Position numbers and translations under genes: made by a program
Shown here: positions 10,110 through 34,231 of the stretch, piece by piece
Position numbering within the stretch: position 1 is the stretch's first letter
Layout of the letters: the number at the start of each line of letters is the position of its first letter
The notes under the pieces: model-generated
What the model saw: the letters and a program-made list of their open reading frames with translations, nothing else
Told to the model about the DNA's origin: nothing
Database searches by the model: none
Virus record (IMG/VR): IMGVR_UViG_3300006735_000030
Coordinates: 4,803-68,802 of that record
Source: a virus
Direction: 5' to 3' (one strand)
DNA: 64,000 bases

Positions 10110-10326
10110 TATCTTCCTCCGAAAATACTTCTACCATTAAAACATTATTATCATTTATCATTATATAACGACCATCTTTACACTTAAATTTAGTAAATTG
10201 TCCTTGTTCTATTGACAACGTATCTATTCCATGTATGGTCTTTCTATAACCTTCTTTAAAATGAACTATTTGTGTAACATATCTACCTTCGTGTGCAACT
10301 GAAGATAGTAAATTCTTTTTACTCAT
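10099..10326 (-). CDS. Hypothetical protein
   Basis: 75-aa ORF overlapping both neighbours. Confidence 0.55.
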   Translation of the reverse strand: MSKKNLLSSVAHEGRYVTQIVHFKEGYRKTIHGIDTLSIEQGQFTKFKCKDGRYIMINDNNVLMVEVFSEEDNGN

Positions 10327-11107: not shown

Positions 11108-11142
11108 AAGATAACCTTTATTATAAGTATATTCTGATATTG

Positions 11143-15152: not shown

Positions 15153-15153
15153 A

Positions 15154-20549: not shown

Positions 20550-21944
20550 CTATGCTTTGTAAACACTAAAACGTTTTCTTGGTTTCCAAGTCTCAAAAAC
20601 TTTATCCATATGTTCAATAAAATTATTACACATTGATTCTCCACTCATCATAGAATCATCACCTATTGCCCATTCATGTCCAACCATACCACATCTTTTT
20701 CTTTCTTCTCTACCAACATCATACCAATCTTTTACTCTATCGGCTACATCATTCCAATCACATCTGTCATCGAAAATATATGGCGTTGGAACTGAACCCA
20801 TTAGTGAACGAGTCCTTGGCCATACTGGTTTTACCCAATCTCCATGAGTTAATCTATCATTATTTTCCCATTTCCTATAATCATGAAACGAGTGTACTTC
20901 TGAATAATCTTTGTATGTGACGTAGTTACCATCTAATTTAAATCCACATTGGTCTTGCATTCCACCAGTAACATTTAAAATAACTGGTGTTCCACACATA
21001 ATAGATTCTGCACCAGACAACCCAAAACCCTCATTTGATGAAATCAACAATGTACAATCTGCTATATTATACAGATAGTTTAGAGCTTCATCAGATAACT
21101 TTTGGTCTGAAAAGGCTACATCTCCATTTGGACATAACTCTTTCACAACATTTGGTAAGTGTGTACCATTGTTATCAATTGGTGTTGTATGCATAATCAG
21201 AAGACATTTGTCAGCTTTTTCTTTTGGTAACATACCACAAAACTTATTGTAAGACAAAATAATATCACCTACCATTTTACGTTTGATATTACGAGCATTA
21301 TAAAATAGAATAAAATCTCTATCTACACCCTTTACTGCATTTTTCTTGAAATCTATATATTTTTCGTCTTGTTTCTGTTCTTTAGTCATTGGAAAAAAAC
21401 TTTTATGATTTATACCATGTGGTATATATGTAGAATCAATATCAGTTCTTGGTTTATGTTGACAAACATTTTGAACAATATTATGAGTTTGTTTTGAAAT
21501 ATTCATAATCAAATCACAAGACTCGTAGTAATTTTCATTCCATCTTGGATAAGGTAAGTCATCCCAAATATTATAATAAAATATAGGAATCTCTTGTCGT
21601 ATCTCATGTTCCATTTGAAATAACCAAACCCAAAATCGTGGGTCTGTATAAATCATGATAGCGTCTGGTTTTTCTATACTCATTATTTCACGTAACATAT
21701 CTGGGTTTCCATAACCACTTGTTGGATAAACCTTCAAATAAGGTGTTACTTCAAGTTTTAACTCTTTCTTAACATCGGCCGATAAATCGAATACCTTCCC
21801 TTCGTCTGGGTGTTTTATAGCTCCACCAATCTGAACCCAATCATAATGGTTTAACGTTCCCTTGACAAATTCCCTTGACATTGTACCGACACCAGAAGAC
21901 ATACGTAAGTCATCTGACAACAACAATATTTTCTTTTTTGACAT
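20550..21944 (-). CDS. GT4-family glycosyltransferase
   Basis: SGVG, IPHG, NARNIKRK, NEGFGLSGAESIMCGTPVI. Confidence 0.9.
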   Translation of the reverse strand: MSKKKILLLSDDLRMSSGVGTMSREFVKGTLNHYDWVQIGGAIKHPDEGKVFDLSADVKKELKLEVTPYLKVYPTSGYGNPDMLREIMSIEKPDAIMIYTDPRFWVWLFQMEHEIRQEIPIFYYNIWDDLPYPRWNENYYESCDLIMNISKQTHNIVQNVCQHKPRTDIDSTYIPHGINHKSFFPMTKEQKQDEKYIDFKKNAVKGVDRDFILFYNARNIKRKMVGDIILSYNKFCGMLPKEKADKCLLIMHTTPIDNNGTHLPNVVKELCPNGDVAFSDQKLSDEALNYLYNIADCTLLISSNEGFGLSGAESIMCGTPVILNVTGGMQDQCGFKLDGNYVTYKDYSEVHSFHDYRKWENNDRLTHGDWVKPVWPRTRSLMGSVPTPYIFDDRCDWNDVADRVKDWYDVGREERKRCGMVGHEWAIGDDSMMSGESMCNNFIEHMDKVFETWKPRKRFSVYKA

Positions 21945-22444: not shown

Positions 22445-22846
22445 TTAGTTAATAATAACTACTTTCTTACCAACTTTTTTCGCTTCTTTTATGGTACTGA
22501 AAGTTCCTTTGGACACCACGTCCTTTGGTATGAACGCAACAATTTTATCTGAGTATTCTACTATCTGTTTATTACGTTTATGGTAGTGCCATGTAGCATA
22601 TTGTTTACCATACTCAAATCTTGGTCTAACACAATGTACATTGTAGGGATAATGTGTTGGTGGAAATTCCGCATATTTCATATCAAACTCTAATGCATAC
22701 TTTTTAGCGTATCCATCGGCTCCTTCTTTTTGTCCACCACTTACTATCTCAATATTCTCTCCAAACTTTTCTTTTAGTGCAAATACAAACTCTTTGATTC
22801 TTCTTTTATTAGAATATTGTCTCGAACCTACTATTCCTATTTTCAT
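22445..22846 (-). CDS. SLOG-family (YspA/DprA-like) nucleotide-binding protein
   Basis: IVGSR, IVSGG..GAD, RNKQIVEYSD, SKGT. Confidence 0.8.
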   Translation of the reverse strand: MKIGIVGSRQYSNKRRIKEFVFALKEKFGENIEIVSGGQKEGADGYAKKYALEFDMKYAEFPPTHYPYNVHCVRPRFEYGKQYATWHYHKRNKQIVEYSDKIVAFIPKDVVSKGTFSTIKEAKKVGKKVVIIN

Positions 22847-23288: not shown

Positions 23289-24161
23289 TTACCTCTTCCT
23301 ATCACATAGTTCTGGTTTGTTCTTGAACTCACAATATTTACAATTCTTTTGTGAAGGCTCTTTTCTATAAATAGTATCCTGAAGATATTCTCCCTTCTCA
23401 TCGAAACATTCTGCTAAAAAATTATTCAAGTTCAAAAGTACCCTATTAATACTTGGTTTACCAGAAGCAGGTACTACTTTCTGAACCCTCTTTTGTGGAA
23501 AGTCAACATTTTCCCATAACTTACGTTTTACAATGAAGAACTCAACATCTATCTTGTCAATCGGAACATTCATCTGAGCTGAATAAAATTGTTTGTATAA
23601 TAACAACTGGTCTGTCTTATTTTTGTCCTTCTTCTGCCATTTGTTCCAACCTTTTGTTGAAGTCTTAATGTCGTAGATGATATACTTGTCTCTAACTGTA
23701 TCGTGGATTACGAGGTCAATATACCCCTTAAACACCACGTTACTCTTCATTTTATAATTTAGTTCTGTTTCAATACCAACAAGTTCATATCCCTTCTTAC
23801 TGAAATATTGAGCTCTTCTTTTCTTGAACCAGTCTAAAATAACACACCCATCATTGTAAAACTCTACCATATCATTTTCAGTACAAAAAACCTCACCACC
23901 ATTAGCTTTCATTATTCTTTCATAATGATATTGCATTCTTTGTCTTAATAGGTCTTCTACATCAATTGAATCTGCTTCTTTAGCAGTCTGATTATACATT
24001 ACGTGTAAATAAAATTGTAGTACTTCATGCATTGATGTACCAAACATTGTGTGAATACTATCTGTAAACTCACGAAGACCATCTACATATAATAATTTCC
24101 ACCTATGTGGACATTGTGACCATAAATTATATTGACTATACGATACTGATTTCAAAACCAA
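23289..24161 (-). CDS. PD-(D/E)XK Cas4/AddB-like exonuclease
   Basis: SYSQ...CP, FGTSMH, GYIDL...DIKT, QLLLY, C-terminal CKYC...C. Confidence 0.88.
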   Translation of the reverse strand: MVLKSVSYSQYNLWSQCPHRWKLLYVDGLREFTDSIHTMFGTSMHEVLQFYLHVMYNQTAKEADSIDVEDLLRQRMQYHYERIMKANGGEVFCTENDMVEFYNDGCVILDWFKKRRAQYFSKKGYELVGIETELNYKMKSNVVFKGYIDLVIHDTVRDKYIIYDIKTSTKGWNKWQKKDKNKTDQLLLYKQFYSAQMNVPIDKIDVEFFIVKRKLWENVDFPQKRVQKVVPASGKPSINRVLLNLNNFLAECFDEKGEYLQDTIYRKEPSQKNCKYCEFKNKPELCDRKR

Positions 24162-25549
24162 GACACCTCTTTATCTACTGAACTTAACTTCTTACGTTTA
24201 TTTACTTTTAAATCTAATTCTACACTACTCAAACATTCATCAATCAACTCTTGGTCAATATTACTTTTAGACAAATCGTAATTAGTGTATGGTGTTTTTG
24301 GATTGTCTCTAACACCTTTACTTAGTAACCACCTACGAATGTACTGCCATGTTGAATTAGCTGCTAGATGTGGTTGAACTTGTTCTGTTATGTGACTTTT
24401 TTGTGTCACTCCATTTAATATACAATATAACCAATTCATAGCATCTTGTGGTAACTTGGGTCTAGCACGAGAAATGATTTCCTGCATGGTATTCCTCAAG
24501 TTCTCCCTAAAAGTTAACTCAAAATTATCTAAATTCCAAGAGCTTTTTTCAGGTATTTTTCGTATCATATTCTGAAACTCTTCTTTGGTTTTAAATGTGT
24601 ATGGATAATTTTCTCCTACAACTTTACTCATTTGTGGATTGTCATACACCAAAACTGGTTTATCAACTTGTATACCATCTTGTACCGATAGATTCCAAGT
24701 CATATAACCATCAACAAAACTTACACTACAATGAGAGTTTTCTAACAAGTATCTATATTGACCTCTGTTTAATTTAGAAGCTACATACTCTTTTGGAGCT
24801 TGCCAATCAGTACTCCATATCATATACTCGTCTTCCAATCCTTCGAAATATTCTAACAACCTATTTACACCAGTAGTTTGACCCCACCTATGATTGAATA
24901 CAACAATCTTCTTATCTGTTGGTAAGTCTATAGGTTCTGCTGGTGGTAACGGGTCTGAAGCTAGTGGCATAGTTTTTGTCTTATTCTTGATATAATTCAT
25001 ATCAATAGAAACTGGTTGTCCTTTTGTAAAGTTTCTAGCTAACCAATCATTCGATATATCAGTATGAAAGAATGCATTATCAGCCATACCTATTGATTCT
25101 ATTTGTCTCATAAATGGTGGTGGTGTTGCTGAAGATACTCTACTACCTGGACAATCAACCCAGTGAAAGAATAAAAATCTACTTACAACTTGTCCATATC
25201 TCTTATCACTCATAGCTACAAAGATATTATACAACATCTCTGGTTGGTGACAAAATACGAAATCAATGTCTTGTGTTTTAAAGTCTATGATATTTCTAAA
25301 AACAGAATCATGGAAAGCTGAACGATTAGATAGAGCGTTTCTATAGTATGGATATTTTATAAGAGTAACATTTGGTCTGTCATCAGGCATAGTATGTTTT
25401 TCTGGTACTAAAACATAATGATGACATTCTGGTAAGAATGATATTGTCTTTTCTAATACTTTATAATTAGAATCAAACTGATGTTGAAATACTCCACTAC
25501 TATCAAATCTTACTGGACTACCATAATGTAATATTCTTAATCCATCCAT
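24152..25549 (-). CDS. GT-B fold glycosyltransferase-like protein, paralog A (candidate DNA glycosyltransferase)
   Basis: Shares SPVR, DSNYKV, CHHYVLVP, HQPE, FFHWVDC, VFNHRW, YMTWNLSVQD with 32780..34231; GT-B-like second domain. Confidence 0.65.
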   Translation of the reverse strand: MDGLRILHYGSPVRFDSSGVFQHQFDSNYKVLEKTISFLPECHHYVLVPEKHTMPDDRPNVTLIKYPYYRNALSNRSAFHDSVFRNIIDFKTQDIDFVFCHQPEMLYNIFVAMSDKRYGQVVSRFLFFHWVDCPGSRVSSATPPPFMRQIESIGMADNAFFHTDISNDWLARNFTKGQPVSIDMNYIKNKTKTMPLASDPLPPAEPIDLPTDKKIVVFNHRWGQTTGVNRLLEYFEGLEDEYMIWSTDWQAPKEYVASKLNRGQYRYLLENSHCSVSFVDGYMTWNLSVQDGIQVDKPVLVYDNPQMSKVVGENYPYTFKTKEEFQNMIRKIPEKSSWNLDNFELTFRENLRNTMQEIISRARPKLPQDAMNWLYCILNGVTQKSHITEQVQPHLAANSTWQYIRRWLLSKGVRDNPKTPYTNYDLSKSNIDQELIDECLSSVELDLKVNKRKKLSSVDKEVSWF

Positions 25550-25656
25550 TTACCATGCTCCTTTAAGTGCCATAATCTATGTGTGAACATTTCCCAAACT
25601 AAACCAAATAGTGTATCTGATTCATACACTCCAGCTTTACATTCATATTTATACAT
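25537..25656 (-). CDS. Small hypothetical protein (39 aa, not in ORF track)
   Basis: MYKYECKAGVYESDTLFGLVWEMFTHRLWHLKEHGKWMD; fills the gap and overlaps both neighbours. Confidence 0.55.
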   Translation of the reverse strand: MYKYECKAGVYESDTLFGLVWEMFTHRLWHLKEHGKWMD

Positions 25657-25774
25657 CTTTTTTACCCTTAGTATCTCTTAACCAATTTATGTAATGTCTA
25701 ATCTTACCACCCAATTCCATATCATTAGGTGTTTCTTTAACCATTCTTTCTATAATCTTCAATGGTGATTTCAT
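25649..25774 (-). CDS. Small hypothetical protein (41 aa, not in ORF track)
   Basis: MKSPLKIIERMVKETPNDMELGGKIRHYINWLRDTKGKKDV; TAATG coupling to upstream stop. Confidence 0.6.
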   Translation of the reverse strand: MKSPLKIIERMVKETPNDMELGGKIRHYINWLRDTKGKKDV

Positions 25775-26196
25775 TACTTACCCCATTTACCATTTTTAAC
25801 AATGGTTGCCATAATTCCATAATTACTAACATCTAAATAAGCATCTTCCATTGGTTCACCTTCTACAGCATTTCCTCTCTTACCCATTAATAAAGTTTTT
25901 AACCTTTGTATCTTATCATTCATCCTAAACCATAAACCAGTAAGTGACAAATGTATCTCGTCATCTGTTATTAATTGAGTACCAACCGAAATATTACCTG
26001 GGCCATAATCATGTTGTTTATGACAGAATAATTCGTATTGTTCTCTCTGTAGTTTTTTGAACTCTTGTGTCATTTCTGGCCATTCTTTTTCCATTTGTTC
26101 AACAATTGTTCCAGGTGAATCAACACCTGTTGGTGTGTCTTTTATAGTTTTCATAACTTTTCCTCTTTTTAAGTCTAATAAACTCGGTTCACTCAA
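25774..26196 (-). CDS. DUF1599 / nucleotide-modification-associated domain protein
   Basis: KQHDYG..N, RMNDKIQRL, EDAYLDVSNYGIM. Confidence 0.8.
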   Translation of the reverse strand: MSEPSLLDLKRGKVMKTIKDTPTGVDSPGTIVEQMEKEWPEMTQEFKKLQREQYELFCHKQHDYGPGNISVGTQLITDDEIHLSLTGLWFRMNDKIQRLKTLLMGKRGNAVEGEPMEDAYLDVSNYGIMATIVKNGKWGK

Positions 26197-26197
26197 T

Positions 26198-26770
26198 TTA
26201 CACTACCTCGTCTACGACACCATACTCCAAACATTCACTAGCTGTTAGATAGGTATCTTGTTTAGAAACTCCTTCCCAAAACTCCGAAGATTTCTTTGTT
26301 ACATCTCCAAGAATATTACAAATTGTTTTTTGTAATAGTTTTAAATGGTCAGCTCCTTTTAGTACATCCGATGTTTTTCCAGCTTCAAACGCGGAACCTT
26401 CATGAACCATCACGGTTGAATTTTGAGTCATCGTTCTTTTACCAGTTCCACTAGCAAGTAAAACTGCTGCGGCCGACATACAAGCTCCAAGGCAGTGAGT
26501 GTTAACTTTAACTGGTAGACTTCTTATATAATCTATCATACCTAACATAGTATATACATCCCCACCATAGGAGCTTATAATCATATTTAGTGCTCTTCGT
26601 GGGTCTTTTTGGTGTCTTAATAGATTATCTATTTTTGTAACGATTGTATAAAGATTGTCCATATCAAAATCATATGCCATATAGACTGTATTTGTTTCTG
26701 TATTTACACCCCATTCTAACTCTTTCATTAAAATGGCGTGTTCGATATTTCTCTCTTCAAGATTAGTCAT
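26198..26770 (-). CDS. clpP: ClpP-like serine protease
   Basis: ISSYGGDV, CMSAA (Ser), MVHE (His), QDTYLTA.E..EYGVVD (Asp). Confidence 0.88.
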   Translation of the reverse strand: MTNLEERNIEHAILMKELEWGVNTETNTVYMAYDFDMDNLYTIVTKIDNLLRHQKDPRRALNMIISSYGGDVYTMLGMIDYIRSLPVKVNTHCLGACMSAAAVLLASGTGKRTMTQNSTVMVHEGSAFEAGKTSDVLKGADHLKLLQKTICNILGDVTKKSSEFWEGVSKQDTYLTASECLEYGVVDEVV

Positions 26771-26779
26771 TGTAAACTC

Positions 26780-27259
26780 CTATTGTAAACTAAATGGTAA
26801 ATCCTTCCACATCTTTGGCTCTATGCCATATTTCTGTAGAACTTCTCTAATTTCATACATTCCTTGTTCTGTTAATATAAGTGTTTCTACAGCGTTACCT
26901 ACTTCTGATGTAGAACACTCATAGTGTTTGGTCATAATTTCAATAAACCACTTTGGTAAATTCATGTCGTTCTTCCCTTTTACGTATTTCAAAAATTGTT
27001 TTCCTTTTGGTAGAACATCACAATATATTTTATAATGTTCTCTTGGTGTTAAGACATCCCAATACTTTTGAACGTCATTAACGAAATCAACCCATTCCAT
27101 CTTCATTGATAGAAAACGATTGACCATGTAATCCGAATATGTTTTTTTATCCTCTGTTGAAAGAGTATCCCAATAATCTGGGTTCTGATATTGCGTTACA
27201 GCATTTAAATGGTCGAATAGACCCTTTTTCTTAATTGTCTGTTTCTTCTTCTTTGACAC
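26780..27259 (-). CDS. Clamp loader small subunit (T4 gp62-like)
   Basis: LFDHLNAV...YMVNRFLSM...LPKGKQFLKY; near large subunit and clamp. Confidence 0.75.
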   Translation of the reverse strand: MSKKKKQTIKKKGLFDHLNAVTQYQNPDYWDTLSTEDKKTYSDYMVNRFLSMKMEWVDFVNDVQKYWDVLTPREHYKIYCDVLPKGKQFLKYVKGKNDMNLPKWFIEIMTKHYECSTSEVGNAVETLILTEQGMYEIREVLQKYGIEPKMWKDLPFSLQ

Positions 27260-27506
27260 TTAGACCACTACTCTCTAAAAGTTGTTTTGGTACTTGACCA
27301 CAATTACCACAACTATAAACTTGAACTGGAACCAAACCAGCTTGTCCTGTTGGTGAGACGATAGCTGATATTTTCTTAATAACAAATGATGTTATAAATA
27401 AATAGTTTCCACAATTGTCACATTTCATAGTTTCTTGGTCTTCAAGATTAATTTTTACTTCACTTTTTGGTGCACCTGGAAAAGGTTTCATTGGTTTTGT
27501 ACTCAT
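27231..27506 (-). CDS. Zn-ribbon hypothetical protein
   Basis: CDNCG...CGNCG. Confidence 0.65.
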   Translation of the reverse strand: MSTKPMKPFPGAPKSEVKINLEDQETMKCDNCGNYLFITSFVIKKISAIVSPTGQAGLVPVQVYSCGNCGQVPKQLLESSGLSVKEEETDN

Positions 27507-28288
27507 TCTATTTCTCCTATACTAACTGTTGCGACTCCATGTTTTTGTACAACCAATGTCGTACACTTTTGAGCTAATTCAATACCTCGTTCTATATTTC
27601 CTGTTTGTAAGTAACCACGAACCAATCCTGCTAAAAAAGTATCACCAGCTCCACTAACATCTCTAACTGGTACTGAATCTACTGGAAACTCTATGTCATT
27701 CCATCTACATCCCTTACTACCCAAAGTAACAATAAGTTTGTCTTCAAATCCTTCATCTGATAATAACTCGTGGTTTTTCTTATACTCTAATTCATTTATT
27801 TTTATAAAGTCTGCATTCTTAATCCAAGTACCAAGTTTCTTTTTTGTATCAACAAATACATTTTTATTATTGTCACAAATCCACTTGATATCATCTTCGT
27901 GTAAGAAACCTTTACAATAATCTGATATAATAATAGCATCAACTTCAACTTTACCACTCATTGATATATAACATTCATTATTCTGAATTGTTGATAGTAG
28001 TATGTCTTCTATTCTATCACAATAATCATGTTCATCAACTCTTAAAACCATTTGACCACTACGATTATCAACGTATCTTTTTTTAACAATACTATTCTGA
28101 TTAGTAATTGTATGAATACCCATATCTAACGATTCAACATTATTTGAAACATTTCTAGCCATACCATCATTCGATTCTTCACGTGTAGGTACAAATACTG
28201 GGATAGGAGCTTCTGGACTTATTCTTTCGATATCTCCATAAATAAAAACATCTTTACAACTATCTCCAACGACTAAGACTTTTTTCAT
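27503..28288 (-). CDS. PfkB-family kinase, RfaE/HldE heptose-7-phosphate kinase-like
   Basis: VVGD...D, RISPEAPIPV, ISDYCKG, DVSGAGDTF. Confidence 0.85.
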   Translation of the reverse strand: MKKVLVVGDSCKDVFIYGDIERISPEAPIPVFVPTREESNDGMARNVSNNVESLDMGIHTITNQNSIVKKRYVDNRSGQMVLRVDEHDYCDRIEDILLSTIQNNECYISMSGKVEVDAIIISDYCKGFLHEDDIKWICDNNKNVFVDTKKKLGTWIKNADFIKINELEYKKNHELLSDEGFEDKLIVTLGSKGCRWNDIEFPVDSVPVRDVSGAGDTFLAGLVRGYLQTGNIERGIELAQKCTTLVVQKHGVATVSIGEIE

Positions 28289-29211
28289 TTTACAACTCCC
28301 AATAACTCTATTATCATAGACATTGCATTTATCTCCTTATCAACCACAATAGCATCAGATTGTTGATATTTAGCTAAGGTCAAGATACATTCTGCTACAT
28401 GACCTTTACCCCAATCATCTACCTCATCATATAATAATCTAAACAACTCTGAATAATCCTTTACTTCACTATCTAATAACAATTGTCTTATGTTCTTAAA
28501 TGCATTTCTTTTATCTTGGTTCTTCAAGATATCAAGTACTTTCATCTTGTAATCATTCTGAATGATACTTGTTTTATCCAACTCAAGATTACCATCAACA
28601 GATTGTCTTTGTGCAGAATTTAAAACTCTACGAATATCTGGATAACAACTATTGATGATAAAAGCTATATCTTCGTTTTTATACGTAACATTTTCATTAT
28701 CAAGTATTTTACCAAGATGTATAGCTACTTCTTTTTTTGATGGTGGTGTTAGATTATACGCTTGACATCTACTTTGGATTGGGTCTATAATACGCTCAAC
28801 AAAATTACAAGTTAAGATAAATCTACAATGATTAGAATATGTTTCCATTATGTTACGAAGAGCCGCTTGACTTGTTGGTGTGATATAATCAACCTCATCA
28901 AGTATAACGATTTTCATATTAGCGAAACCAAGAGAACCAGCGAAAGGTCTGATTTTATCTATGACCTCGACTCTTCTTTCATCCGATGCATTAATGTATA
29001 GATATTCACAATCAATGTTCTTAACAAGTAATTTAGCGAGAGTGGTCTTACCTGTACCAGCCTTCCCATATAGTAAAAGATGTGGTAAGTCTCCACTCTC
29101 TATAGCGTCTTCTATCTTAGTCTTTAGGTGTTTGTTACCTATGTAAGATTCGAGACTTGTAGGCCGATACTTTTCTACCCATAGAGTGTTTTTATCGTTT
29201 GTAACTAACAT
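28285..29211 (-). CDS. Clamp loader large subunit (RFC / T4 gp44-like AAA+)
   Basis: WVEKYRP, GKAGTGKTT, INASDE, LDEVD, SRC. Confidence 0.95.
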   Translation of the reverse strand: MLVTNDKNTLWVEKYRPTSLESYIGNKHLKTKIEDAIESGDLPHLLLYGKAGTGKTTLAKLLVKNIDCEYLYINASDERRVEVIDKIRPFAGSLGFANMKIVILDEVDYITPTSQAALRNIMETYSNHCRFILTCNFVERIIDPIQSRCQAYNLTPPSKKEVAIHLGKILDNENVTYKNEDIAFIINSCYPDIRRVLNSAQRQSVDGNLELDKTSIIQNDYKMKVLDILKNQDKRNAFKNIRQLLLDSEVKDYSELFRLLYDEVDDWGKGHVAECILTLAKYQQSDAIVVDKEINAMSMIIELLGVVK

Positions 29212-29216
29212 TCAAA

Positions 29217-29975
29217 TTATATAGCTGTACGTGATTGTAAAAAGTAAACTGCTGAATAATCATCAATGTTGAAAGACAACTTTACAAGTGGTCTATCTCC
29301 ACCAACCATTTCAAAAGTACCAGTTTCACATTCTTTATTTACATTCAATATTTCAGACATAACATCACTATTGAAGTAAAATTTATCAACATCAGCATAC
29401 TTTGTTGTTGTTACTGGTATTTCCAATCTGTTAGAGTGTGTTGTTCTCCAACCAATACAAACTGAAGTTTTTTCATTTTCAGTTAATACTGTAAATGTAT
29501 CTATTTCATCTCCAAGTGCTGATTTACCACTTGTAAATTTTTGAATGAAATTAGAATCCATTGTAAAAGATACTTCCCACTCTTGTTGAAAAAGAGTCTT
29601 CAATATCTCATCACTAGCTTTAGGTACGACACTTGTGTCGTGTAACATATATTTCGCTTTATTACCAAAATCATCTTTACAATTTACCTCAACCGCTTTC
29701 TTCTCACCATCTCTATCAATGCTAGTAACATCAAAAGATATTTCTGAACCAAGTGATTGTAATAAATTACTTAACTTTGAAATATCACCAACACCAATAG
29801 TAGCTTCTTGCATCGGTGACTTTTCCATTTTCAAAACAACCAAACAATCTTTATTATCTGTTGCAACAGCAGAATGAGTATTACCATTATGTGTTGTTAT
29901 TTGTGTTTGTGTTATTTTGTTTCCAAGACGTATTTTGTCAAGGTAGCGAGTAAGTTTCGCTTTTTCCATAACCAT
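29217..29975 (-). CDS. DNA sliding clamp (gp45/PCNA-like)
   Basis: ~250 aa, two-domain beta-rich pattern ending ...AVYFL; lies between PolB and clamp loader. Confidence 0.65.
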   Translation of the reverse strand: MVMEKAKLTRYLDKIRLGNKITQTQITTHNGNTHSAVATDNKDCLVVLKMEKSPMQEATIGVGDISKLSNLLQSLGSEISFDVTSIDRDGEKKAVEVNCKDDFGNKAKYMLHDTSVVPKASDEILKTLFQQEWEVSFTMDSNFIQKFTSGKSALGDEIDTFTVLTENEKTSVCIGWRTTHSNRLEIPVTTTKYADVDKFYFNSDVMSEILNVNKECETGTFEMVGGDRPLVKLSFNIDDYSAVYFLQSRTAI

Positions 29976-30030
29976 TTTCTCCTATTATTATATGAGTTAT
30001 ATATACATATATATGACTCGTTCAAAACCA

Positions 30031-30282
30031 TCAATTTATTTTTAATAAATCCTTAAATTTTTTTAATTGTTGTTCATTCAACCAACCATTGAAGTAATTA
30101 CCACTAATATTCATTATTGGATACGTCAATTTATCAGAATTTGTTTTCTTATAGAGTTTTTCCTCTAATTTTTTGTTCTCAAAAACTCTGACTTCCATAA
30201 AGTTTACACCATTGTTTCTTAACCAAGTTTTAGCTTCTTTACAATATGGACACTTAGGAATTGTGTACAATACTAAAACCAT
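30031..30282 (-). CDS. Glutaredoxin (NrdH-like)
   Basis: CPYC active site, TYP. Confidence 0.9.
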   Translation of the reverse strand: MVLVLYTIPKCPYCKEAKTWLRNNGVNFMEVRVFENKKLEEKLYKKTNSDKLTYPIMNISGNYFNGWLNEQQLKKFKDLLKIN

Positions 30283-32780
30283 GCGTTTTCATTCTTTACT
30301 TGTGGTTCACTCCAATCTAATGCACCATAAAACATATTTAGTTTTTTGGTCATAGCTTGTTCATACATCTTATCATAATCAATGTACTCTTTAATAAAAT
30401 CCATTATCTCTTTTGGGTCTTCATATCCCTTATAAGCAACAACGTCTAATTTCAATGGATTATCTTTCAAATACACCCATCTGATTTTAGAGTCGCTAAC
30501 AATTGGTTCATAACTTTTTTTCTTAAAATACTTTAACAAATCATTATAGTATATTGAAGACTTAACATGAACTGGTGTACCAGTCATAATGGCTGTTTTT
30601 GCTCCAACGTTACTGAATCCATCGTCTTTTTTTGGTGTATACTTTTCTATGTTCTTTACACCAACTGGATTTGCTATATCATCTACACTCAATTGTCTTA
30701 TCTTAGATTTAAAGTCTAATATTCTTTCATCAACTTTATCCTTTGGAACATAATTCAATATATCATCAAGTACACTCTTTAGTAAATGTTTCATAGCTGG
30801 TGGGAATGTACTTCGAACTGTATCTAAACCTTTTACGTGAACCTTATTTACTTTTACCCCATTGTCATTGATAATTCTCATCCCATATCGTTTCTTAACA
30901 ACGAAGAAACCAGCTCTTGCTATAATCTCTTGTTTAATCTCAAATCTATGTTTAGAAATATTACAAAACTTTTTAGCAAAGTAATCATAAGACTTGTTCA
31001 TATAACCTTGAACTTCTGTGGCTATCTCTGAAATCTTTTGTGTTTTCATAACATCAGAAAGTTCTTGATTTGGAAATCTCTTTTCAAGAAGTGGTACTGC
31101 AGAATAAAATACTGAATCGGTATCAATATAAATACAATAGTCTTTGTCATCTTCAAGTTCTTTATTATAAAAGTGATTACCAATCTTCTTTGTAAACTTA
31201 ATTAGAGATTGACCAGTCAACGTTGTTGCTTCGGCGTTATCTAAATCATAAAACCTAAATACTGATAGACCTAATACACCATACAATGAATTTAAAACAA
31301 CTTTCTGAATGTATTGTTTCCTATTAAAATATTGATATTTCTCATCATCACCTTCGTCAGCAAACTTTTTAGCTAGTTTTCTAAACTCTACCCTTGTATT
31401 AAACCATTGTTCCAATAGAGCGGGAATCAAACCTTTTTTATCTGTTTTATAAATTATACCATTGGATGAAATAGAGACTTGATTATCATTAAAATAAGTT
31501 TGTAACTCTTCGTGTGTAACCTTACCTTGTTCCTTACCACCCATTTTTACTGTATAAGTTTTTGGTACTTTTTGAACATACTCTTCTGGATTCCAACCAA
31601 CTATTTCACCTATCTTTGTTTCTGGCGATATATTCAATGACATAATAATTGATGGATACATTGAAGTAATATCTAAATCATATATCCATTCGTGTCTACC
31701 TTTTTGTGGGTCTTGTACATAAGCACCAGAGAACTTGTTCTCTTCAAATAAATCTTTTCTACCATCTTTCTTTTTGTTTGGTGCAACAATACCAAGTTTC
31801 TTTAAGTAAACTAATACGGCTCCTTCAAGATATCTCGAAGACCATTCTACTTCTTCGTATGGTACATGACCAACATGAGCAATACCTCGACACACATCTA
31901 TAAAATCTAACTTATCATTTAACATCTTAACAAGTCTAACGTCATGAATGTTATATTCTACGAATTTATTTAAATCATTGTCATACAAATCATTTAGTGT
32001 TCCTTCATACTCAACTTTTTTCTCACCAAGTTCATCTTCTGCTATAGCATCTAATCTGTAAGATGTCTTTTGAGTATATGTAAAATTTTTATATAGTGAC
32101 AAGTAATCTAATTGAGATAGTCCAGCTATTTTATATCTATTTTGGTACTCACTCCAATTAACTCTTCTGATTGGAGAAAGACAATCTGCTATTTCAGAAC
32201 CAAGTACGTTTGTAGCTCTATTGTAAAGATATGGCATATCGAATCTCAAACTATTCCAACCAGTCAATATTGTAGGTCTTAACTGAAGAAATAATGCATA
32301 AAATCTATTTAATAACTCACCTTCTTCTTGAAAAGCTTCTATCTCAATATCATCTTTAGTTTCAAGAGTTAGTCTGTTATCTGGGTCAAGAACAAGACAA
32401 AAATATTTGTCCACTCCACTATCGTAATAAGCTATTGAAGTTATTTTGTTTTCTGCTTTTTGAACGTCTGGAAATCCTTGTGTAACCTCAACCTCGATAT
32501 CAATAATACCAATTCTTATGTCTGAAGATATATCATCTGAATCTGTATACATATCAACAAGTGTTCTTGTCTCTGGATTAACATCAGATTCCCAAAGGTT
32601 TTTAGTCTTCTTATCGAACTTATATACTTTTTTTAGTTTATCTCCATATAGAGATACATAAGTTCCATAATTGTCTTTTACGTAAGCGTATTTTTTATAT
32701 GGTAGGACGAGATAACCTTTTTCGTCATCCCAAATGTGTATCTTGTTTTTGAAGTTATCATAAAATATATTCTGATACAT
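30273..32780 (-). CDS. Family B DNA polymerase with 3'-5' exonuclease
   Basis: DIEVE, GWNSLRFD, DITSMYPS, KVVLNSLYG, YIDTDS, KKRY; likely ATG at 32780 (track start 32789). Confidence 0.97.
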   Translation of the reverse strand: MYQNIFYDNFKNKIHIWDDEKGYLVLPYKKYAYVKDNYGTYVSLYGDKLKKVYKFDKKTKNLWESDVNPETRTLVDMYTDSDDISSDIRIGIIDIEVEVTQGFPDVQKAENKITSIAYYDSGVDKYFCLVLDPDNRLTLETKDDIEIEAFQEEGELLNRFYALFLQLRPTILTGWNSLRFDMPYLYNRATNVLGSEIADCLSPIRRVNWSEYQNRYKIAGLSQLDYLSLYKNFTYTQKTSYRLDAIAEDELGEKKVEYEGTLNDLYDNDLNKFVEYNIHDVRLVKMLNDKLDFIDVCRGIAHVGHVPYEEVEWSSRYLEGAVLVYLKKLGIVAPNKKKDGRKDLFEENKFSGAYVQDPQKGRHEWIYDLDITSMYPSIIMSLNISPETKIGEIVGWNPEEYVQKVPKTYTVKMGGKEQGKVTHEELQTYFNDNQVSISSNGIIYKTDKKGLIPALLEQWFNTRVEFRKLAKKFADEGDDEKYQYFNRKQYIQKVVLNSLYGVLGLSVFRFYDLDNAEATTLTGQSLIKFTKKIGNHFYNKELEDDKDYCIYIDTDSVFYSAVPLLEKRFPNQELSDVMKTQKISEIATEVQGYMNKSYDYFAKKFCNISKHRFEIKQEIIARAGFFVVKKRYGMRIINDNGVKVNKVHVKGLDTVRSTFPPAMKHLLKSVLDDILNYVPKDKVDERILDFKSKIRQLSVDDIANPVGVKNIEKYTPKKDDGFSNVGAKTAIMTGTPVHVKSSIYYNDLLKYFKKKSYEPIVSDSKIRWVYLKDNPLKLDVVAYKGYEDPKEIMDFIKEYIDYDKMYEQAMTKKLNMFYGALDWSEPQVKNENAWF

Positions 32781-34231
32781 TAAAACCAACTATCATCTTT
32801 ATTGATTGTCTTGAACTTTGGGTCTACTTTAGACTCACCAAATGTCAATTCAGAATCATCAACGAGTTTTTGTATCTCATCTCGTTTATCATCTGGAACA
32901 AATAACTTTGTATACTCATAATTTGGGTCATCTTTTATTCCTTTGGATATACACCAAAGTCTTATCTTCTCCCACGTGTTACTCAAATACAAATTAGGAT
33001 GACTATTGTATAATAAATTTTTCTTGAAACCATTACCTTTTAGAATATGGTATAACCACTCAATTCCAGCACTTGGTGTTTTTACAGTACGTTTCTTTTT
33101 ACCATCACAAGCTTCACTCAAATCATTAATTAGATTTTCTTTAAATCTTTCATCGTGTGGTGGTAAATCCCATTGGAAATCTTTTGGTGTATTATCTAAC
33201 AACTCAAGAAAAGACTTTTTATCTGTAAAATATAATGGATAATCTTTACCTAAAACGTGTTCTTGTGTAGGATGTTTGAATGTTAAACTTGGTCTATTAG
33301 CTTTTATAGCATCTTGTACTGATAAATTCCAAGTCATATAATCGTTCACTATACAAATACTAGCATAACAATTATCTATCAAGTATCTATATTGACCACC
33401 ACTTGGTAAGTTTTGAACTTTCATCCAATCTGGTGCAGGTTTACCAGCTTTTGGTTTTTTAGCATCATCATCGGTAATCCAAACTAACCACTCATCTCTA
33501 TCAAGGTCTTTCGTCCACTCTATAAGTTTTTTTATACCAGTAGATTGATTCCATCTGTGATTGAATACCAATATTTTTTTGTCTGGTAATGGAAATGGTT
33601 CTGGGTCAGGTAAGTCACCAACACCAAGTGGAAAGTAATTAATTTTTTCTTTCATGACGTTGTCATCAACACCTTGTGCTGTATGTGGCATCTTATCCCA
33701 ATTGGATTTCATATAGTCCAAACTAACTGGACAATGAAAATAAGATTTTGTAGATAAATCAATAGCTTCTAATTGTCTGAAGAAACCAACTGGATAACCA
33801 CCAGTAGGTCTACTCTTTTCACAATCAACCCAATGGAAAAAATTGTAACTATCTACAGTCATTCCATACCTATCGGTCAGGATTGCGTTGTAAACATTGT
33901 ACAATAATTCTGGTTGGTGATTAAAGATAAAGTCAACATCAAGTCTTTGAAAGTCAACTTTTTTCAATAGAGCTTTACTATCGAAGAAACCACGATTAAA
34001 TAATACACTACCAGCATATGGAAACTTTATCATTGTGACATTATCTCCAAGATGTGGGATTGTATTGTTTGGTGGAACTAAAACATAATGATGACACATA
34101 GGTAACCACTTTATAGTTTTAACCATTACTTTATAATTGGAATCTGCTTGATGCATAAATTTGGTTGAACGCCATCTTACAGGTGACATAACGTGTAAGA
34201 CTCTTCTACCATATAACTTGTGATTTATCAT
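32780..34231 (-). CDS. GT-B fold glycosyltransferase-like protein, paralog B (candidate DNA glycosyltransferase)
   Basis: Same motifs as 24152..25549; stop overlaps PolB start (TAATG). Confidence 0.65.
   Translation of the reverse strand: MINHKLYGRRVLHVMSPVRWRSTKFMHQADSNYKVMVKTIKWLPMCHHYVLVPPNNTIPHLGDNVTMIKFPYAGSVLFNRGFFDSKALLKKVDFQRLDVDFIFNHQPELLYNVYNAILTDRYGMTVDSYNFFHWVDCEKSRPTGGYPVGFFRQLEAIDLSTKSYFHCPVSLDYMKSNWDKMPHTAQGVDDNVMKEKINYFPLGVGDLPDPEPFPLPDKKILVFNHRWNQSTGIKKLIEWTKDLDRDEWLVWITDDDAKKPKAGKPAPDWMKVQNLPSGGQYRYLIDNCYASICIVNDYMTWNLSVQDAIKANRPSLTFKHPTQEHVLGKDYPLYFTDKKSFLELLDNTPKDFQWDLPPHDERFKENLINDLSEACDGKKKRTVKTPSAGIEWLYHILKGNGFKKNLLYNSHPNLYLSNTWEKIRLWCISKGIKDDPNYEYTKLFVPDDKRDEIQKLVDDSELTFGESKVDPKFKTINKDDSWF

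What the first reader, a model, noticed from the sequence alone, without database searches (positions are those of the whole stretch)
24152..34231. Two paralogous GT-B proteins bracket the replisome genes and share the polymerase's C-terminal WF tail: candidate clamp-tethered DNA glycosylation system
Seen: 24152..25549 and 32780..34231 are clear paralogs (SPVR, DSNYKV, CHHYVLVP, FFHWVDC, VFNHRW, YMTWNLSVQD). They sit in the replication block, not in the glycan island, and one is TAATG-coupled to PolB. Both have an extra C-terminal helical domain (WLY.IL.G...TW..IR.W..SKG..D.P). They end ...DKEVSWF and ...NKDDSWF, and PolB ends ...KNENAWF; no other ORF in the window ends this way. Known: T4 DNA glucosyltransferases are GT-B enzymes, and T4/RB69 gp43, gp33 and gp55 bind the sliding clamp through a C-terminal hydrophobic peptide. 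Inference: two sugar transferases ride the clamp and modify nascent DNA, perhaps sequentially, as an anti-restriction or anti-CRISPR modification. Caveat: the TGGTTT codons overlap or abut the downstream gene starts, which could constrain them.
Basis: partly seen in the sequence, partly recalled or inferred. Interest (0 to 1): 0.85.

Follow-up and report, generated by a model that had tools for sequence, protein, structure and literature searches.

The report
Clamp-tailed sugar transferases in phage replisome
An uncultured marine T4-like phage carries two related sugar-transferring enzymes beside its DNA-replication genes, and both end in the same short peptide as its DNA polymerase, so they probably ride the sliding clamp and decorate newly copied DNA, though what they modify is not shown.

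Summary
ORFs 24152-25549 and 32780-34231 (both on the minus strand) are 40% identical paralogs (E 3e-121). Both end in SWF, the family B polymerase ends in AWF, and no other ORF of 67 ends in an aromatic pair.

- **Fold:** the AlphaFold model (pLDDT 92) is a GT-B fold close to retaining GT4 enzymes (Z 22.8). It has an extra C-terminal domain, a loose linker and the tail. The family matches no Pfam or PHROG model and is not related in sequence to the T4 alpha- or beta-glucosyltransferases.
- **Tail:** it is kept in 112 of 120 homologs with varying codons, so gene overlap does not explain it.
- **Specificity:** across the window and 76 related phage loci, 55 of 63 distinct tails in four families carry it, against 12 of 651 elsewhere. 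The four families are the polymerase, these transferases, N6/N4 DNA methylases and a small SAM methyltransferase.
- **Clamp:** ORF 29217-29975 folds as PCNA. Co-folding gave only weak support for binding (0.49; best control 0.01).
- **Acceptor:** DNA glycosylation is inferred. No hydroxymethylase or TET was found.

T4 alpha-glucosyltransferase is already known to bind gp45. This scan has noted clamp-like tails on DNA-modifying enzymes in at least 17 other genomes.

The parts
32780..34231 (-). GTb: 483-aa GT-B (GT4-like) glycosyltransferase paralog, TAATG-coupled to PolB
   Evidence: ORF. AF2 model pLDDT 92.4, pTM 0.91. 454 PDB chains at Foldseek E<=0.001, all listed ones GT-B. VIA Z 22.8 to 6kih, 22.2 to BshA, 21.8 to MshA. 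No Pfam, PHROG or PDB sequence hit.
33092..34213 (-). GTb residues 7-380: the two Rossmann-like halves of the GT-B core
   Evidence: Structural matches span model residues 7-381. Invariant polar residues across 59 homologs: H47, H48, N79, R80, E108, R121, H133, H166, K196, R226, W301, N302, D307.
32852..33091 (-). GTb residues 381-460: extra C-terminal domain (three helices, a beta-hairpin, one helix), basic
   Evidence: DSSP of the model. Not covered by any GT-B match. Conserved block W..IL.G...K....P.L..SN.W..IR.W...G..D.P in 38 sequences. pI of the last 105 aa is 8.9 in GTb and 9.2 in GTa. No PDB sequence relative (best E 0.48). A winged-helix-like topology is my inference only.
32804..32851 (-). 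GTb residues 461-476: variable, low-confidence linker
   Evidence: Coil in DSSP. Mean pLDDT by 10-residue block falls from 94 (461-470) to 71 (471-480) to 44 (481-483). Length and sequence vary in the alignment.
32783..32803 (-). GTb C-terminal tail NKDDSWF: putative clamp-docking peptide
   Evidence: 112 of 120 homologs keep an aromatic pair in the last 10 residues. Co-fold with the clamp trimer gave weak support, 0.49 against a best control of 0.01.
24152..25549 (-). GTa: 465-aa paralog of GTb, same architecture. Its last codons overlap the TTG start of the nuclease gene
   Evidence: 40% identity to GTb over the full length, E 3e-121. GTa-type orthologs occur in relatives, often directly between clamp and clamp loader.
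24155..24175 (-). GTa C-terminal tail DKEVSWF
   Evidence: orthologs end KEESWF, KHDFF, NHGFF, KHNWF, NKFFDLE.
30273..32780 (-). Family B DNA polymerase of the T4/RB69 gp43 type (835 aa from the ATG in TAATG)
   Evidence: Pfam DNA_pol_B 2.6e-34 and exonuclease domain 2.5e-22. RB69 polymerase 1clq E 2.5e-67, with the alignment ending about 15 residues before both C-termini. 33% identity to T4-like cyanophage and Vibrio phage gp43, 45% to Microcystis phage Mel-JY01.
30276..30296 (-). PolB C-terminal tail KNENAWF
   Evidence: 119 of 120 closest PolB homologs end in an aromatic pair (S-[IM]-E-[RK]-F-F, or N-[AS]-W-F). T4 gp43 ends KASLDFLFG and gp55 ends SLDFLYEAND.
29217..29975 (-). Sliding clamp (PCNA/gp45 fold), the proposed docking partner
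   Evidence: AF2 pLDDT 93.5. Foldseek: at least 500 PDB chains at E<=0.001, top PCNA 1.8e-12, TM 0.70. Sequence evidence is weak only.
28285..29211 (-). Clamp-loader large subunit (RFC/gp44-like AAA+)
   Evidence: Pfam AAA 5.8e-17, DNA_pol3_delta2 5.4e-11.
26780..27259 (-). Clamp-loader small subunit (gp62-like)
   Evidence: PHROG 225 'clamp loader of DNA polymerase' 4.4e-17.
27503..28288 (-). PfkB-family sugar kinase between the clamp-loader genes (possible donor-sugar supply; membership in the system uncertain)
   Evidence: Pfam PfkB 2.4e-17. PHROG 8133 2.8e-84. Found only in the window's near clade, L003-L016.
25774..26196 (-). DUF1599 ('nucleotide modification associated domain 1') gene upstream of GTa (membership uncertain)
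   Evidence: Pfam PF07659 2.1e-6, 28.4 bits against a cut-off of 25. Also present in relatives G003 and G004.
23289..24161 (-). PD-(D/E)XK nuclease gene coupled to the end of GTa
   Evidence: Pfam PDDEXK_1 2.2e-24. Syntenic downstream of GTa in relatives.

Best explanation
GTa and GTb are two anciently duplicated, phage-specific glycosyltransferases. Each consists of a GT-B (GT4-like, probably retaining) core, a small basic C-terminal domain, a flexible linker and a terminal [K/N/D]-x-[F/W]-[F/W] peptide. They belong to the replication module of an uncultured marine T4-like phage, probably of Flavobacteriales.

The terminal peptide is of the same class as the one that closes the phage's gp43-type polymerase. 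I read it as a docking peptide for the PCNA-fold sliding clamp (29217-29975). Docking would hold the enzymes on freshly replicated DNA, where they transfer a sugar to DNA (base unknown) as a masking modification.

**Shown:** paralogy, fold, conservation and specificity of the tail, replisome synteny, and the clamp fold.

**Inferred:** clamp binding (by analogy to T4/RB69 gp43 and gp55, plus a weak co-fold), DNA as acceptor, and the protective role.
For: **Fold.** AF2 pLDDT 92.4. Foldseek finds 454 PDB chains at E<=0.001, all listed ones GT-B, including the phage HY126 glycosyltransferase 9ir0 at 1.3e-7. VIA gives Z 22.8 to 6kih and 21.8 to MshA 3c4q. These are the same PDB entries that PMC13326640 (passages read) lists as best matches of the RB69 and DLP3 DNA arabinosyltransferases.

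**Tail conserved.** 112 of 120 homologs have an aromatic pair in the last 10 residues, 74 of them at the very end. Six of the 8 exceptions end in [LM]F-like pairs. Codons and junctions vary.

**Tail specific.** In 1307 ORFs of the window plus 76 loci, 55 of 63 distinct tails carry it in four families: GT, PolB, N6_N4 DNA methylase and a class-I SAM methyltransferase. In all other families the figure is 12 of 651. It is 0 of 16 for the clamp and 0 of 17 for the clamp loader.

**DNA methylases carry it.**
- All 38 N6_N4_Mtase ORF rows (not dereplicated) in 12 loci of this phage group carry it. Ten of those 12 loci also hold PolB, clamp or clamp loader.
- Two more methylases in a 292-kb relative end NKFFE and NKFFEIE.
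- Homologs that are 65-74% identical, in four other contigs, lack it (0 of 4).

**PolB.** It belongs to the RB69 gp43 family. 119 of 120 PolB homologs end in an aromatic pair. The cultured relative Mel-JY01 ends SKFFNFK. T4 gp43 and gp55 share SLDFL[FY], which is the established gp45-binding epitope (recalled).

**Synteny.** 47 of 76 loci hold the GT within the fetched flank of PolB, clamp or clamp loader, often directly between clamp and loader. T4 itself has b-gt and a-gt bracketing genes 42-43-62-44-45-46-47.

**Clamp.** PCNA fold.

**Co-fold.** Clamp x3 with GTb residues 436-483 gave weak support: ipSAE 0.49 (three runs 0.55, 0.49, 0.49) against a best control of 0.01.
- In the tool's calibration the mark was reached by 58 of 80 solved complexes and 2 of 110 mismatched pairs.
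- At 0.60 or under it was reached by only 7 of those 80 and by both mismatches.
- The runs agree in at least 34% of their contacts, and partner pLDDT was 41-47.

**Precedent.** T4 alpha-GT co-purifies with gp45 and beta-GT does not (PMC13216743, passages).

**Phage-specific family.** Only 4 of 185,579 species genomes hold a relative, all on short MAG contigs with clamp or loader next door.
Against: - No binding was measured, and the co-fold pass is of the weak class, which the tool says is more often wrong than right without a strong prior.
- No acceptor-making enzyme was found. Thymidylat_synt is absent from 4 of 5 related records. The one hit (G003, 94% complete) keeps the LPPCH and RSxDxFLGLPFN motifs of an ordinary ThyA (E. 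coli numbering recalled).
- ThyX is present only in the window's own record.
- Tet_JBP gave 0 of 5, but that search's control rang nowhere, so it is uninformative.
- 29 of 76 loci show no replisome gene in the flank. Twenty-three of these are a clade whose GTb ends in WW. There the gene sits among RimK, NT5C, UvdE, deformylase and baseplate genes, and its PolB could not be found.
- Tail flavour tracks PolB only partly. The WF-ending PolB clade has WF or AW.F on its GTs and methyltransferase, but phages whose PolB ends ERFF have GTa ending KHNWF.
- Distant family members mostly lack the pair (12 of 57 have it).
- The first Glu of the GT4 EX7E motif is not conserved.
- The fold alone does not separate DNA glycosyltransferases from lipid or small-molecule ones.
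- T4 alpha-GT, the one proven clamp-binding GT, has no such tail.
Confidence: 0.5

Rival explanations
1. The enzymes dock on the clamp or replisome, but the acceptor is not DNA. They might glycosylate a protein at the fork (phage or host), an RNA primer, or a nucleotide precursor. The tail would only localise or time the activity.
For: No hydroxymethylase or TET-type enzyme was found that would create a hydroxyl acceptor on a base. The closest structures (BshA, MshA, SenB, sucrose-phosphate synthase) act on small molecules. The top viral structural neighbours over the full length are Arthrobacter phage glycosyltransferases of unknown acceptor.
Against: The other enzymes that carry the tail are DNA methylases, whose substrate is DNA. 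Known DNA arabinosyltransferases share the same best PDB matches. An extra basic C-terminal domain is present. The T4 alpha-GT precedent applies.
Confidence: 0.2
2. The aromatic tail binds a replisome hub other than the clamp, such as the clamp loader, the helicase or the gp32-like ssDNA-binding protein, as the C-terminal Phe tails of T7 gp4 and gp2.5 bind T7 polymerase (recalled).
For: Binding to the clamp is not measured, and the co-fold is only weak. The tails are not canonical PIP boxes.
Against: PolB is of the gp43 type, and the C-terminal tail of gp43 is the clamp-binding element in T4 and RB69 (knowledge recalled). The co-fold controls scored 0.00-0.01 against 0.49. The GT gene often lies directly between the clamp and clamp-loader genes.
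Confidence: 0.12
3. The tail is not a docking peptide. It would be a turnover tag (non-polar C-termini are protease signals, and a ClpP gene lies in the same block) or a by-product of overlapping gene junctions. The GTs would then serve the neighbouring glycan and sugar island, not DNA.
For: In the window all three WF codon pairs overlap or abut the next start codon. A ClpP-like gene lies at 26198-26770, and two GT4 genes plus a large sugar island lie 2-24 kb away.
Against: In relatives the tail persists with other codons at non-overlapping junctions. It is confined to PolB and three families of modifying enzymes: 55 of 63 distinct tails against 12 of 651 elsewhere. The two neighbouring GT4 genes and the island's GT2 genes lack it. 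A degradation tag on the replicative polymerase is implausible (inference).
Confidence: 0.08
4. The proteins are catalytically dead GT-B scaffolds that serve a structural role in the replisome.
For: They match no Pfam GT model. The first Glu of EX7E is replaced.
Against: Twenty-eight invariant columns, mostly polar (H47, H48, E108, H133, H166, R226, D307...), are kept across 59 sequences that fall to 38% identity with GTb. That pattern fits an active site (inference).
Confidence: 0.04

Closest known systems
Bacteriophage T4 alpha-glucosyltransferase (PF11440, GT72) and its interaction with the gp45 clamp (Sommer et al. 2004, seen only as a citation; re-tested by pull-down in PMC13216743, passages read)
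   Same: A GT-B DNA sugar transferase of a T4-type phage that binds the sliding clamp. T4 also has a second GT, and its two GT genes bracket the 42-43-62-44-45-46-47 replication genes, as GTa and GTb bracket the replisome here.
   Different: No sequence relationship (no Pfam hit; hhalign probability 0.4%). T4 alpha-GT ends ...FKEQFDIITK, unlike the polymerase tail. Here both paralogs carry the tail, whereas T4 beta-GT does not bind gp45. T4 has gp42 to make 5hmC, and no such enzyme was found here.
C-terminal gp45-binding epitopes of T4/RB69 gp43 and of the T4 late-transcription proteins gp55 and gp33 (function recalled; T4 sequences read)
   Same: A short hydrophobic or aromatic peptide at the extreme C-terminus, behind a flexible stretch, shared by the polymerase and by unrelated proteins that must use the clamp. 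The PolB consensus here, S-[IM]-E-[RK]-F-F, resembles T4 S-L-D-F-L-F.
   Different: The carriers here are DNA-modifying enzymes (glycosyltransferases and methyltransferases), not transcription factors. The motif is [K/N]-x-[FW][FW], and binding is not measured.
5-hydroxycytosine arabinosyltransferases of RB69, DLP3 and HY126 (PMC13326640, passages read; PDB 9ir0/9iqz)
   Same: GT4-like GT-B enzymes of T4-like phages that act on DNA. Their best PDB matches (3c4q/3c4v MshA; 6kih, Z 18-18.9) are also the best matches of GTb (Z 21.8 and 22.8). 9ir0 is hit at E 1.3e-7.
   Different: About 12% identity only. Those are about 366 aa and lack the extra C-terminal domain and tail (length). Their pathway starts from a ThyA-homolog 5hodCMP synthase, which was not found here.
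Metavirome DNA glycosyltransferases associated with 5mYOX or ThyS (bioRxiv 10.1101/2023.12.21.572611, passages read)
   Same: Phage GT-A and GT-B enzymes that hypermodify DNA with hexose, HexNAc or heptose. The paper notes such GTs next to DNA polymerase, gp45 or clamp, methyltransferase and epimerase genes.
   Different: That work reports neighbourhood, not a shared clamp-type tail. I could not see its supplementary tables, so I cannot say whether this family is in its set.
Eukaryotic DNMT1 recruited to PCNA through a PIP box (recalled, not checked here)
   Same: A DNA-modifying enzyme tethered to the sliding clamp, so that modification follows replication.
   Different: Canonical PIP box (Qxx[LIVM]xx[FY][FY]), internal position, different enzyme and domain of life. 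The tails here lack the Q and the aliphatic position.

Membership tests
GT-B fold glycosyltransferases (GT4-like) | Two Rossmann-like domains with an interdomain cleft | tested here: met
   AF2 pLDDT 92.4. 454 PDB chains at E<=0.001. Z 22.8, rmsd 3.5 A, 341 residues aligned to 6kih; Z 22.2 to 5d01.
GT-B fold glycosyltransferases (GT4-like) | Sequence match to Pfam Glycos_transf_1 or related GT4 models | tested here: not met
   No GT family at E<=0.1 for either paralog. The neighbouring GT4 gene 20550-21944 does match. hhalign to it gives only 18.6% probability over 56 columns.
GT-B fold glycosyltransferases (GT4-like) | EX7E nucleotide-sugar motif in the C-terminal half | tested here: inconclusive
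   The block YMTWNLSVQD aligns to NEGFGLSGAE of the neighbouring GT4. D307, W301 and N302 are invariant, but the first Glu position is not acidic.
GT-B fold glycosyltransferases (GT4-like) | Sugar transfer from an NDP-sugar | not testable with these tools
   Needs an enzyme assay.
T4 alpha-glucosyltransferase (PF11440) | Sequence homology | tested here: not met
   No Pfam hit. hhalign probability 0.4%, E 0.15.
T4 beta-glucosyltransferase (PF09198) | Sequence homology | tested here: not met
   No Pfam hit. hhalign probability 0.05%.
gp43-type C-terminal clamp-binding peptide | Hydrophobic or aromatic peptide at the extreme C-terminus behind a flexible linker | tested here: met
   Tail at residues 477-483. 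Coil with pLDDT falling from 71 to 44. Variable linker.
gp43-type C-terminal clamp-binding peptide | Same motif class on the cognate replicative polymerase | tested here: met
   The window's PolB ends NAWF and its GTs end SWF. Relatives are tabulated. PolB homologs: 119 of 120.
gp43-type C-terminal clamp-binding peptide | Conserved across homologs independently of nucleotide context | tested here: met
   112 of 120 homologs. Varied codons and junctions.
gp43-type C-terminal clamp-binding peptide | Physical binding to the sliding clamp | tested here: inconclusive
   Co-fold gave weak support: 0.49 against a best control of 0.01. The mark was reached by 58 of 80 solved complexes and 2 of 110 mismatched pairs, but at 0.60 or under by only 7 of those 80 and by both mismatches. 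No measurement.
Canonical PIP box | Q-x-x-[LIVM]-x-x-[FY]-[FY] | tested here: not met
   GTb has I-N-K-D-D-S-W-F, GTa has V-D-K-E-V-S-W-F and PolB has V-K-N-E-N-A-W-F. None has Q at position 1 or an aliphatic residue at position 4. Only the aromatic pair is shared.
Pyrimidine hydroxymethyl/hydroxy-then-glycosyl DNA hypermodification pathways (T4, RB69, 5mYOX types) | A ThyA-homolog hydroxymethylase/hydroxylase or a TET/JBP dioxygenase that makes the acceptor hydroxyl | tested here: inconclusive
   PF00303: 1 of 5 related records (the window's own record was not among them), and that one looks like a canonical ThyA. PF02511: only the window's record. PF12851: 0 of 5, but the control rang nowhere. 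The window's record is only 37% complete.
PCNA/gp45 sliding clamp (for ORF 29217-29975) | Two-domain beta-clamp fold of about 250 aa | tested here: met
   pLDDT 93.5. At least 500 PDB chains at E<=0.001, top PCNA TM 0.70. Trimer state not tested.

The most novel reading that the evidence does not exclude
GTa and GTb are clamp-docked writers of a DNA glycosylation that does not start from 5-hydroxymethyl- or 5-hydroxy-pyrimidines. No ThyA-type hydroxymethylase or TET was found in two near-complete relatives. The sugar would therefore be placed on a canonical base, on a base first marked by the equally clamp-tailed methyltransferases, or on another new acceptor. The donor (heptose or amino-sugar) would be supplied by the PfkB kinase and the adjacent sugar island. 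Clamp-docking tails would then be a general toolbelt rule for DNA-modifying enzymes in T4-like phages.
Probability: 0.12. Interest if true: 0.9.

Novelty: new variant of a known kind. Interest (0 to 1): 0.6.

Why it matters
Phages that mask their DNA must finish the job before host nucleases see naked DNA. A docking peptide that hitches sugar and methyl transferases to the sliding clamp would explain how modification keeps pace with the fork. It would be the phage counterpart of DNMT1 on PCNA.

It would also extend the single, little-known case of T4 alpha-GT binding gp45 to a sequence rule that can be read from genomes. A tail matching the polymerase's would flag an enzyme as acting on DNA. 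Here that rule marks an uncharacterised, phage-only glycosyltransferase family (327 cluster representatives among 1.84 billion) in abundant marine phages as a candidate writer of an unknown DNA modification. The claim is directly testable with peptides, recombinant clamp and nucleoside mass spectrometry.

Tried and rejected
**Sequence searches that found nothing**
- Pfam, PHROGs and PDB by sequence for both paralogs.
- tblastn of GTb against 50,697 cultured phage records, no match at E<=1e-5.
- ESM Atlas features for residues 376-483, no usable hit.
- A profile of the C-terminal 108 residues (38 sequences) against PDB, best E 0.48, which is noise. The fold class of the extra domain is therefore untested.

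**Clamp by sequence.** Only hints: 3aix_B at E 1.3, and PCNA_C in 3 of 21 members. The question was settled by fold.

**Translational-coupling explanation of the tail.** Rejected on codon and junction variety in relatives.

**Test of whether the tail-less methylase homologs (L102-L105) lack this clamp and PolB.** Nothing was found in their contigs, but these are 13-49% complete and the searches had no positive control. Inconclusive.

**Test of whether the clade whose GTb ends in WW has a PolB ending in WW.**
- No PolB was found in five contigs that are 17-44% complete.
- None of the 120 best PolB homologs ends in WW.
- This remains untested.

**Gene next to GTb in that clade.** I considered that it is the ssDNA-binding protein. 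It was rejected: only the FDELF tail is shared with the window's gp32-like protein.

**Tet_JBP search.** The control rang nowhere, so it says nothing.

**Sequencing runs.** Twenty runs from 18 studies hold at least part of the stretch (20 of 23 listed). All are marine metagenomes kept as contigs only, with no raw or long reads, so nothing can be said on modification.

**T4 AGT and BGT structures.** They are not among the 50 rows shown by Foldseek or VIA. This is no evidence of a different fold.

**Literature.** Two searches looked for clamp tethering of phage DNA-modifying enzymes.
- One search returned 7 papers. One was read in passages (PMC13216743); the rest were seen as listing only.
- One search returned 4 papers, seen as listing only. 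By title they concern Mu late transcription, a clamp review and nucS.
- I found no paper describing polymerase-type tails on phage glycosyltransferases or methyltransferases.
- Supplementary files were not opened. The tables of bioRxiv 10.1101/2023.12.21.572611 and PMC13216743 might list this family or further gp45 data.

Full report
**What is there.**
- The window is part of a 68.8-kb IMG/VR virus record rated 37% complete. All genes lie on the minus strand and GC is about 32%.
- ORFs 24152-25549 (GTa, 465 aa) and 32780-34231 (GTb, 483 aa) are real.
- Between them, in order, lie:
  - a DUF1599 gene;
  - a ClpP-like gene;
  - a gp62-like small clamp-loader subunit;
  - a 91-aa ORF;
  - a PfkB sugar kinase;
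  - an RFC/gp44-like clamp loader;
  - ORF 29217-29975;
  - a glutaredoxin-like gene;
  - a family B polymerase.
- A PD-(D/E)XK nuclease gene follows GTa, and a TonB-dependent receptor gene precedes GTb.
- GTb's stop overlaps the polymerase ATG (TAATG). The polymerase is therefore 30273-32780, starting MYQNIF as in relatives.

**The tails in the window.**
- GTa ends DKEVSWF, GTb ends NKDDSWF and PolB ends KNENAWF.
- Of 67 minus-strand ORFs of 70 aa or more, these three end in WF, and none of the other 64 ends in any aromatic pair. The binomial P is 2.4e-5, or 1.4e-3 if the paralogs count once.
- All three WF codon pairs overlap or abut the next gene's start in the window.
- In relatives the pair is written TTCTTT, TTCTGG, TGGTGG, TTCTTC or TTTTTC at junctions with spacers. 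Selection is therefore on the protein.

**Fold.**
- Neither paralog matches Pfam (E<=0.1), PHROGs (E<=0.01) or any PDB sequence.
- An AlphaFold2 model of GTb built on 59 homologs has pLDDT 92.4 and pTM 0.91.
- Foldseek finds 454 PDB chains at E<=0.001. All listed ones are GT-B enzymes: SenB, MshA, BshA, OtsA, PglA and the phage HY126 glycosyltransferase 9ir0.
- VIA-align gives Z 22.8 to sucrose-phosphate synthase 6kih (rmsd 3.5 A, 341 residues), 22.2 to BshA and 21.8 to MshA, over model residues 7-381.
- These are retaining GT4-type enzymes. 6kih and MshA are also the entries that PMC13326640 (passages read) tabulates as best matches of the RB69 and DLP3 DNA arabinosyltransferases.
- There is no detectable sequence relationship to T4 alpha-GT or beta-GT (hhalign 0.4% and 0.05%).
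- Residues 381-460 form an extra small domain of three helices, a hairpin and a helix. It is basic (pI about 9), is not covered by any GT-B match and has no sequence relative in PDB.
- A variable, low-confidence linker and the tail follow.

**The family.**
- It is small and viral.
  - 173 proteins at E<=0.001 among 5.8 billion.
  - 327 representatives among 1.84 billion 50%-identity clusters, 61 of them at E<=1e-30.
  - 161 stretches in IMG/VR.
  - No match in 50,697 cultured phage records.
  - 4 of 185,579 species genomes. All are short MAG contigs (three Flavobacteriales, one Ignavibacteria), three of them with a clamp or clamp-loader gene in the same short contig, so they are probably mis-binned phage DNA.
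- Both paralog types occur together in several relatives whose PolB is only 45-55% identical to the window's. The duplication is therefore old.

**Is the tail conserved and specific?**
- Of the 120 listed homologs, 112 have an aromatic pair within the last 10 residues, 74 of them as the last two. Of the 8 exceptions, one is truncated, one ends in an unrelated tail, and six end in pairs such as MF, LF or FL.
- I pooled all coding-strand ORFs of 70 aa or more from the window and 76 related loci: 1307 ORFs with 721 distinct 8-residue tails. I asked which families end in an aromatic pair within the last five residues.
  - Four families account for 55 of their 63 distinct tails.
  - All other families together show 12 of 651.
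  - The clamp shows 0 of 16 and the clamp loader 0 of 17.
- The four families are the GTs, PolB, N6_N4_Mtase DNA methylases (PF01555, E 1e-36 to 1e-45) and a 204-aa class-I SAM methyltransferase.
- Three tandem methylases directly upstream of PolB in L039 end KHEFF, KKFFEWK and KEFFDY.
- A follow-up scan gave these results:
  - all 38 methylase ORF rows (not dereplicated) in 12 loci of this phage group carry the pair;
  - four contigs with 65-74% identical homologs do not (0 of 4);
  - nor do eight more distant ones (0 of 8);
  - two contigs at 77-80% identity end QYW.
- Two methylases in a 292-kb, 91%-complete relative end NKFFE and NKFFEIE.
- The small methyltransferase ends KKAW[TLV]F. in 15 loci of the window's clade. 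In relatives it ends NKFFSFD, DKFFKF, NIDEFF, NQFFDNE or QDFLL, and there it lies between PolB and the clamp.

**The polymerase and the clamp.**
- PolB belongs to the RB69/T4 gp43 family (1clq, E 2.5e-67). The alignment stops about 15 residues before both C-termini.
- Of its 120 closest homologs, 119 end in an aromatic pair. Most end S-[IM]-E-[RK]-F-F, and 9 end N-[AS]-W-F as in the window.
- The nearest cultured phage, Microcystis phage Mel-JY01, has the same module without the GT, and its PolB ends SKFFNFK.
- In T4 itself gp43 ends KASLDFLFG and gp55 ends SLDFLYEAND. That these are the gp45-binding epitopes is established knowledge that I recall; I did not test it.
- ORF 29217-29975 has no Pfam hit. 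Its model (pLDDT 93.5) matches PCNA, with at least 500 chains at E<=0.001 and TM 0.70.
- Co-folding three clamp copies with GTb residues 436-483 gave the tool's verdict 'weak support':
  - ipSAE 0.49 (runs 0.55, 0.49, 0.49) against a best control of 0.01;
  - the mark was reached by 58 of 80 solved complexes and 2 of 110 mismatches;
  - at 0.60 or under it was reached by only 7 of the 80 and by both mismatches;
  - contacts agree in at least 34%, and partner pLDDT was 41-47.

**Context and counter-evidence.**
- In 47 of 76 loci the GT lies within the fetched flank of PolB, clamp or clamp loader, often exactly between clamp and loader.
- In 29 it does not. Twenty-three of these form a clade (72-79% identical to GTb) whose GTb ends in WW. 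There the gene sits among RimK, NT5C, UvdE, deformylase and baseplate genes. Its polymerase could not be found.
- Tail flavour follows the polymerase only in part.
- Distant family members mostly lack the pair (12 of 57 have it).
- Nothing found would make the usual acceptor.
  - Thymidylat_synt is present in 1 of 5 related records (the window's own record was not among them). That protein keeps ordinary ThyA motifs (E. coli numbering recalled).
  - ThyX is present only in the window's record.
  - Tet_JBP was not found, but that search's control was silent.
- Public runs holding the stretch are marine metagenomes kept as contigs only, so they say nothing on modification.

**Comparison with what is known.**
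- Clamp tethering of a DNA glucosyltransferase is published for T4. Alpha-GT co-purifies with gp45 and beta-GT does not. The authors conclude that expression strength, not clamp binding, mainly sets the alpha/beta ratio (PMC13216743, abstract and passages; Sommer 2004 seen as a citation only).
- T4's b-gt and a-gt also bracket genes 42-43-62-44-45-46-47, a striking parallel to this window.
- A preprint notes metavirome DNA glycosyltransferases next to polymerase, gp45 or clamp, and methyltransferase genes (10.1101/2023.12.21.572611, passages).
- What differs here is:
  - an unrelated GT family;
  - an explicit polymerase-type terminal peptide on both paralogs;
  - the same peptide on DNA methylases.
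- My two literature searches found no paper describing this (mostly listings).
- This scan has noted the phenomenon before on other DNA: 21 notes in at least 17 genomes, three of them on this same GT family. Those are unchecked AI notes and I do not count them as evidence.

**Verdict.**
- The reading 'two clamp-docked DNA sugar transferases' is the best-supported explanation (about 0.5).
- Solid: the fold, the tail's conservation and its restriction to the polymerase plus DNA-modifying enzymes.
- Inferred: clamp binding and DNA as the acceptor.
- It is a new variant of a known kind.

Noticed in passing
window 34335-37091 (-); L005, L046-L051, L071-L075: A full-length TonB-dependent receptor gene (CarboxypepD_reg, Plug and barrel, ending in F) lies directly upstream of GTb. 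It is conserved at 66-88% identity in the same position in related phage contigs. Together with the MAG bins, it points to a Bacteroidota host.
   Followed up: partly
window 19012-20349 and 20550-21944 (-): Two further GT4-type genes lie just downstream of the replication block. One hits PF20706 'GT4 in conflict systems' at 3.9e-6. Both are conserved in relatives, with their own conserved non-aromatic tails (KLPKLKK. and KR[FY]S[IVM][FYW]K.).
   Followed up: partly
window 999-18574 (-): A large sugar-modification island holds an NAD epimerase/dehydratase, three GT2 genes (one 839 aa with a TPR), a cupin, a PIG-L deacetylase, a hexapeptide acyltransferase, a DegT aminotransferase, a sulfotransferase, a GNAT and an NT5C deoxynucleotidase. 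None has the aromatic tail.
   Followed up: partly
window 22445-22846 (-) and 26198-26770 (-): A small SLOG/YpsA/DprA-like protein and a ClpP-family protease are encoded inside the replication block. The SLOG gene is conserved next to the nuclease in relatives.
   Followed up: no
window 42877-43641 (-); L018:10929-11702, L059:11433-12248: The gp32-like ssDNA-binding protein (PF08804, 1.7e-10) ends ...SAFDELFNR. An unrelated protein with an HHDLGK motif, next to GTb in the clade whose GTb ends in WW, ends ...LFDELFGDK. This is a second, acidic-aromatic tail type shared by unrelated proteins.
   Followed up: partly
L067:12291-14695, L068:5032-8618, L135:4379-7965: PolB is split into two ORFs in some relatives. 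The pieces nearly abut in L067 and lie about 1 kb apart in L068 and L135. This suggests an inserted mobile element or intein. Only the C-terminal piece carries the KFF tail.
   Followed up: no
L123-type distant homologs P0123, P0127, P0128, P0130, P0187: Some distant GT family members end in DLFSQF, DLFSEL, RMLFH, EFSLF or EDLFE. These are closer to the T4 SLDFLF flavour than to the KFF flavour.
   Followed up: no
window 49736-50305 (-): A DUF6445 protein ends ...QTFFFNKI. It is the only other window ORF with an aromatic run near its end, and probably part of its fold rather than a tail.
   Followed up: no
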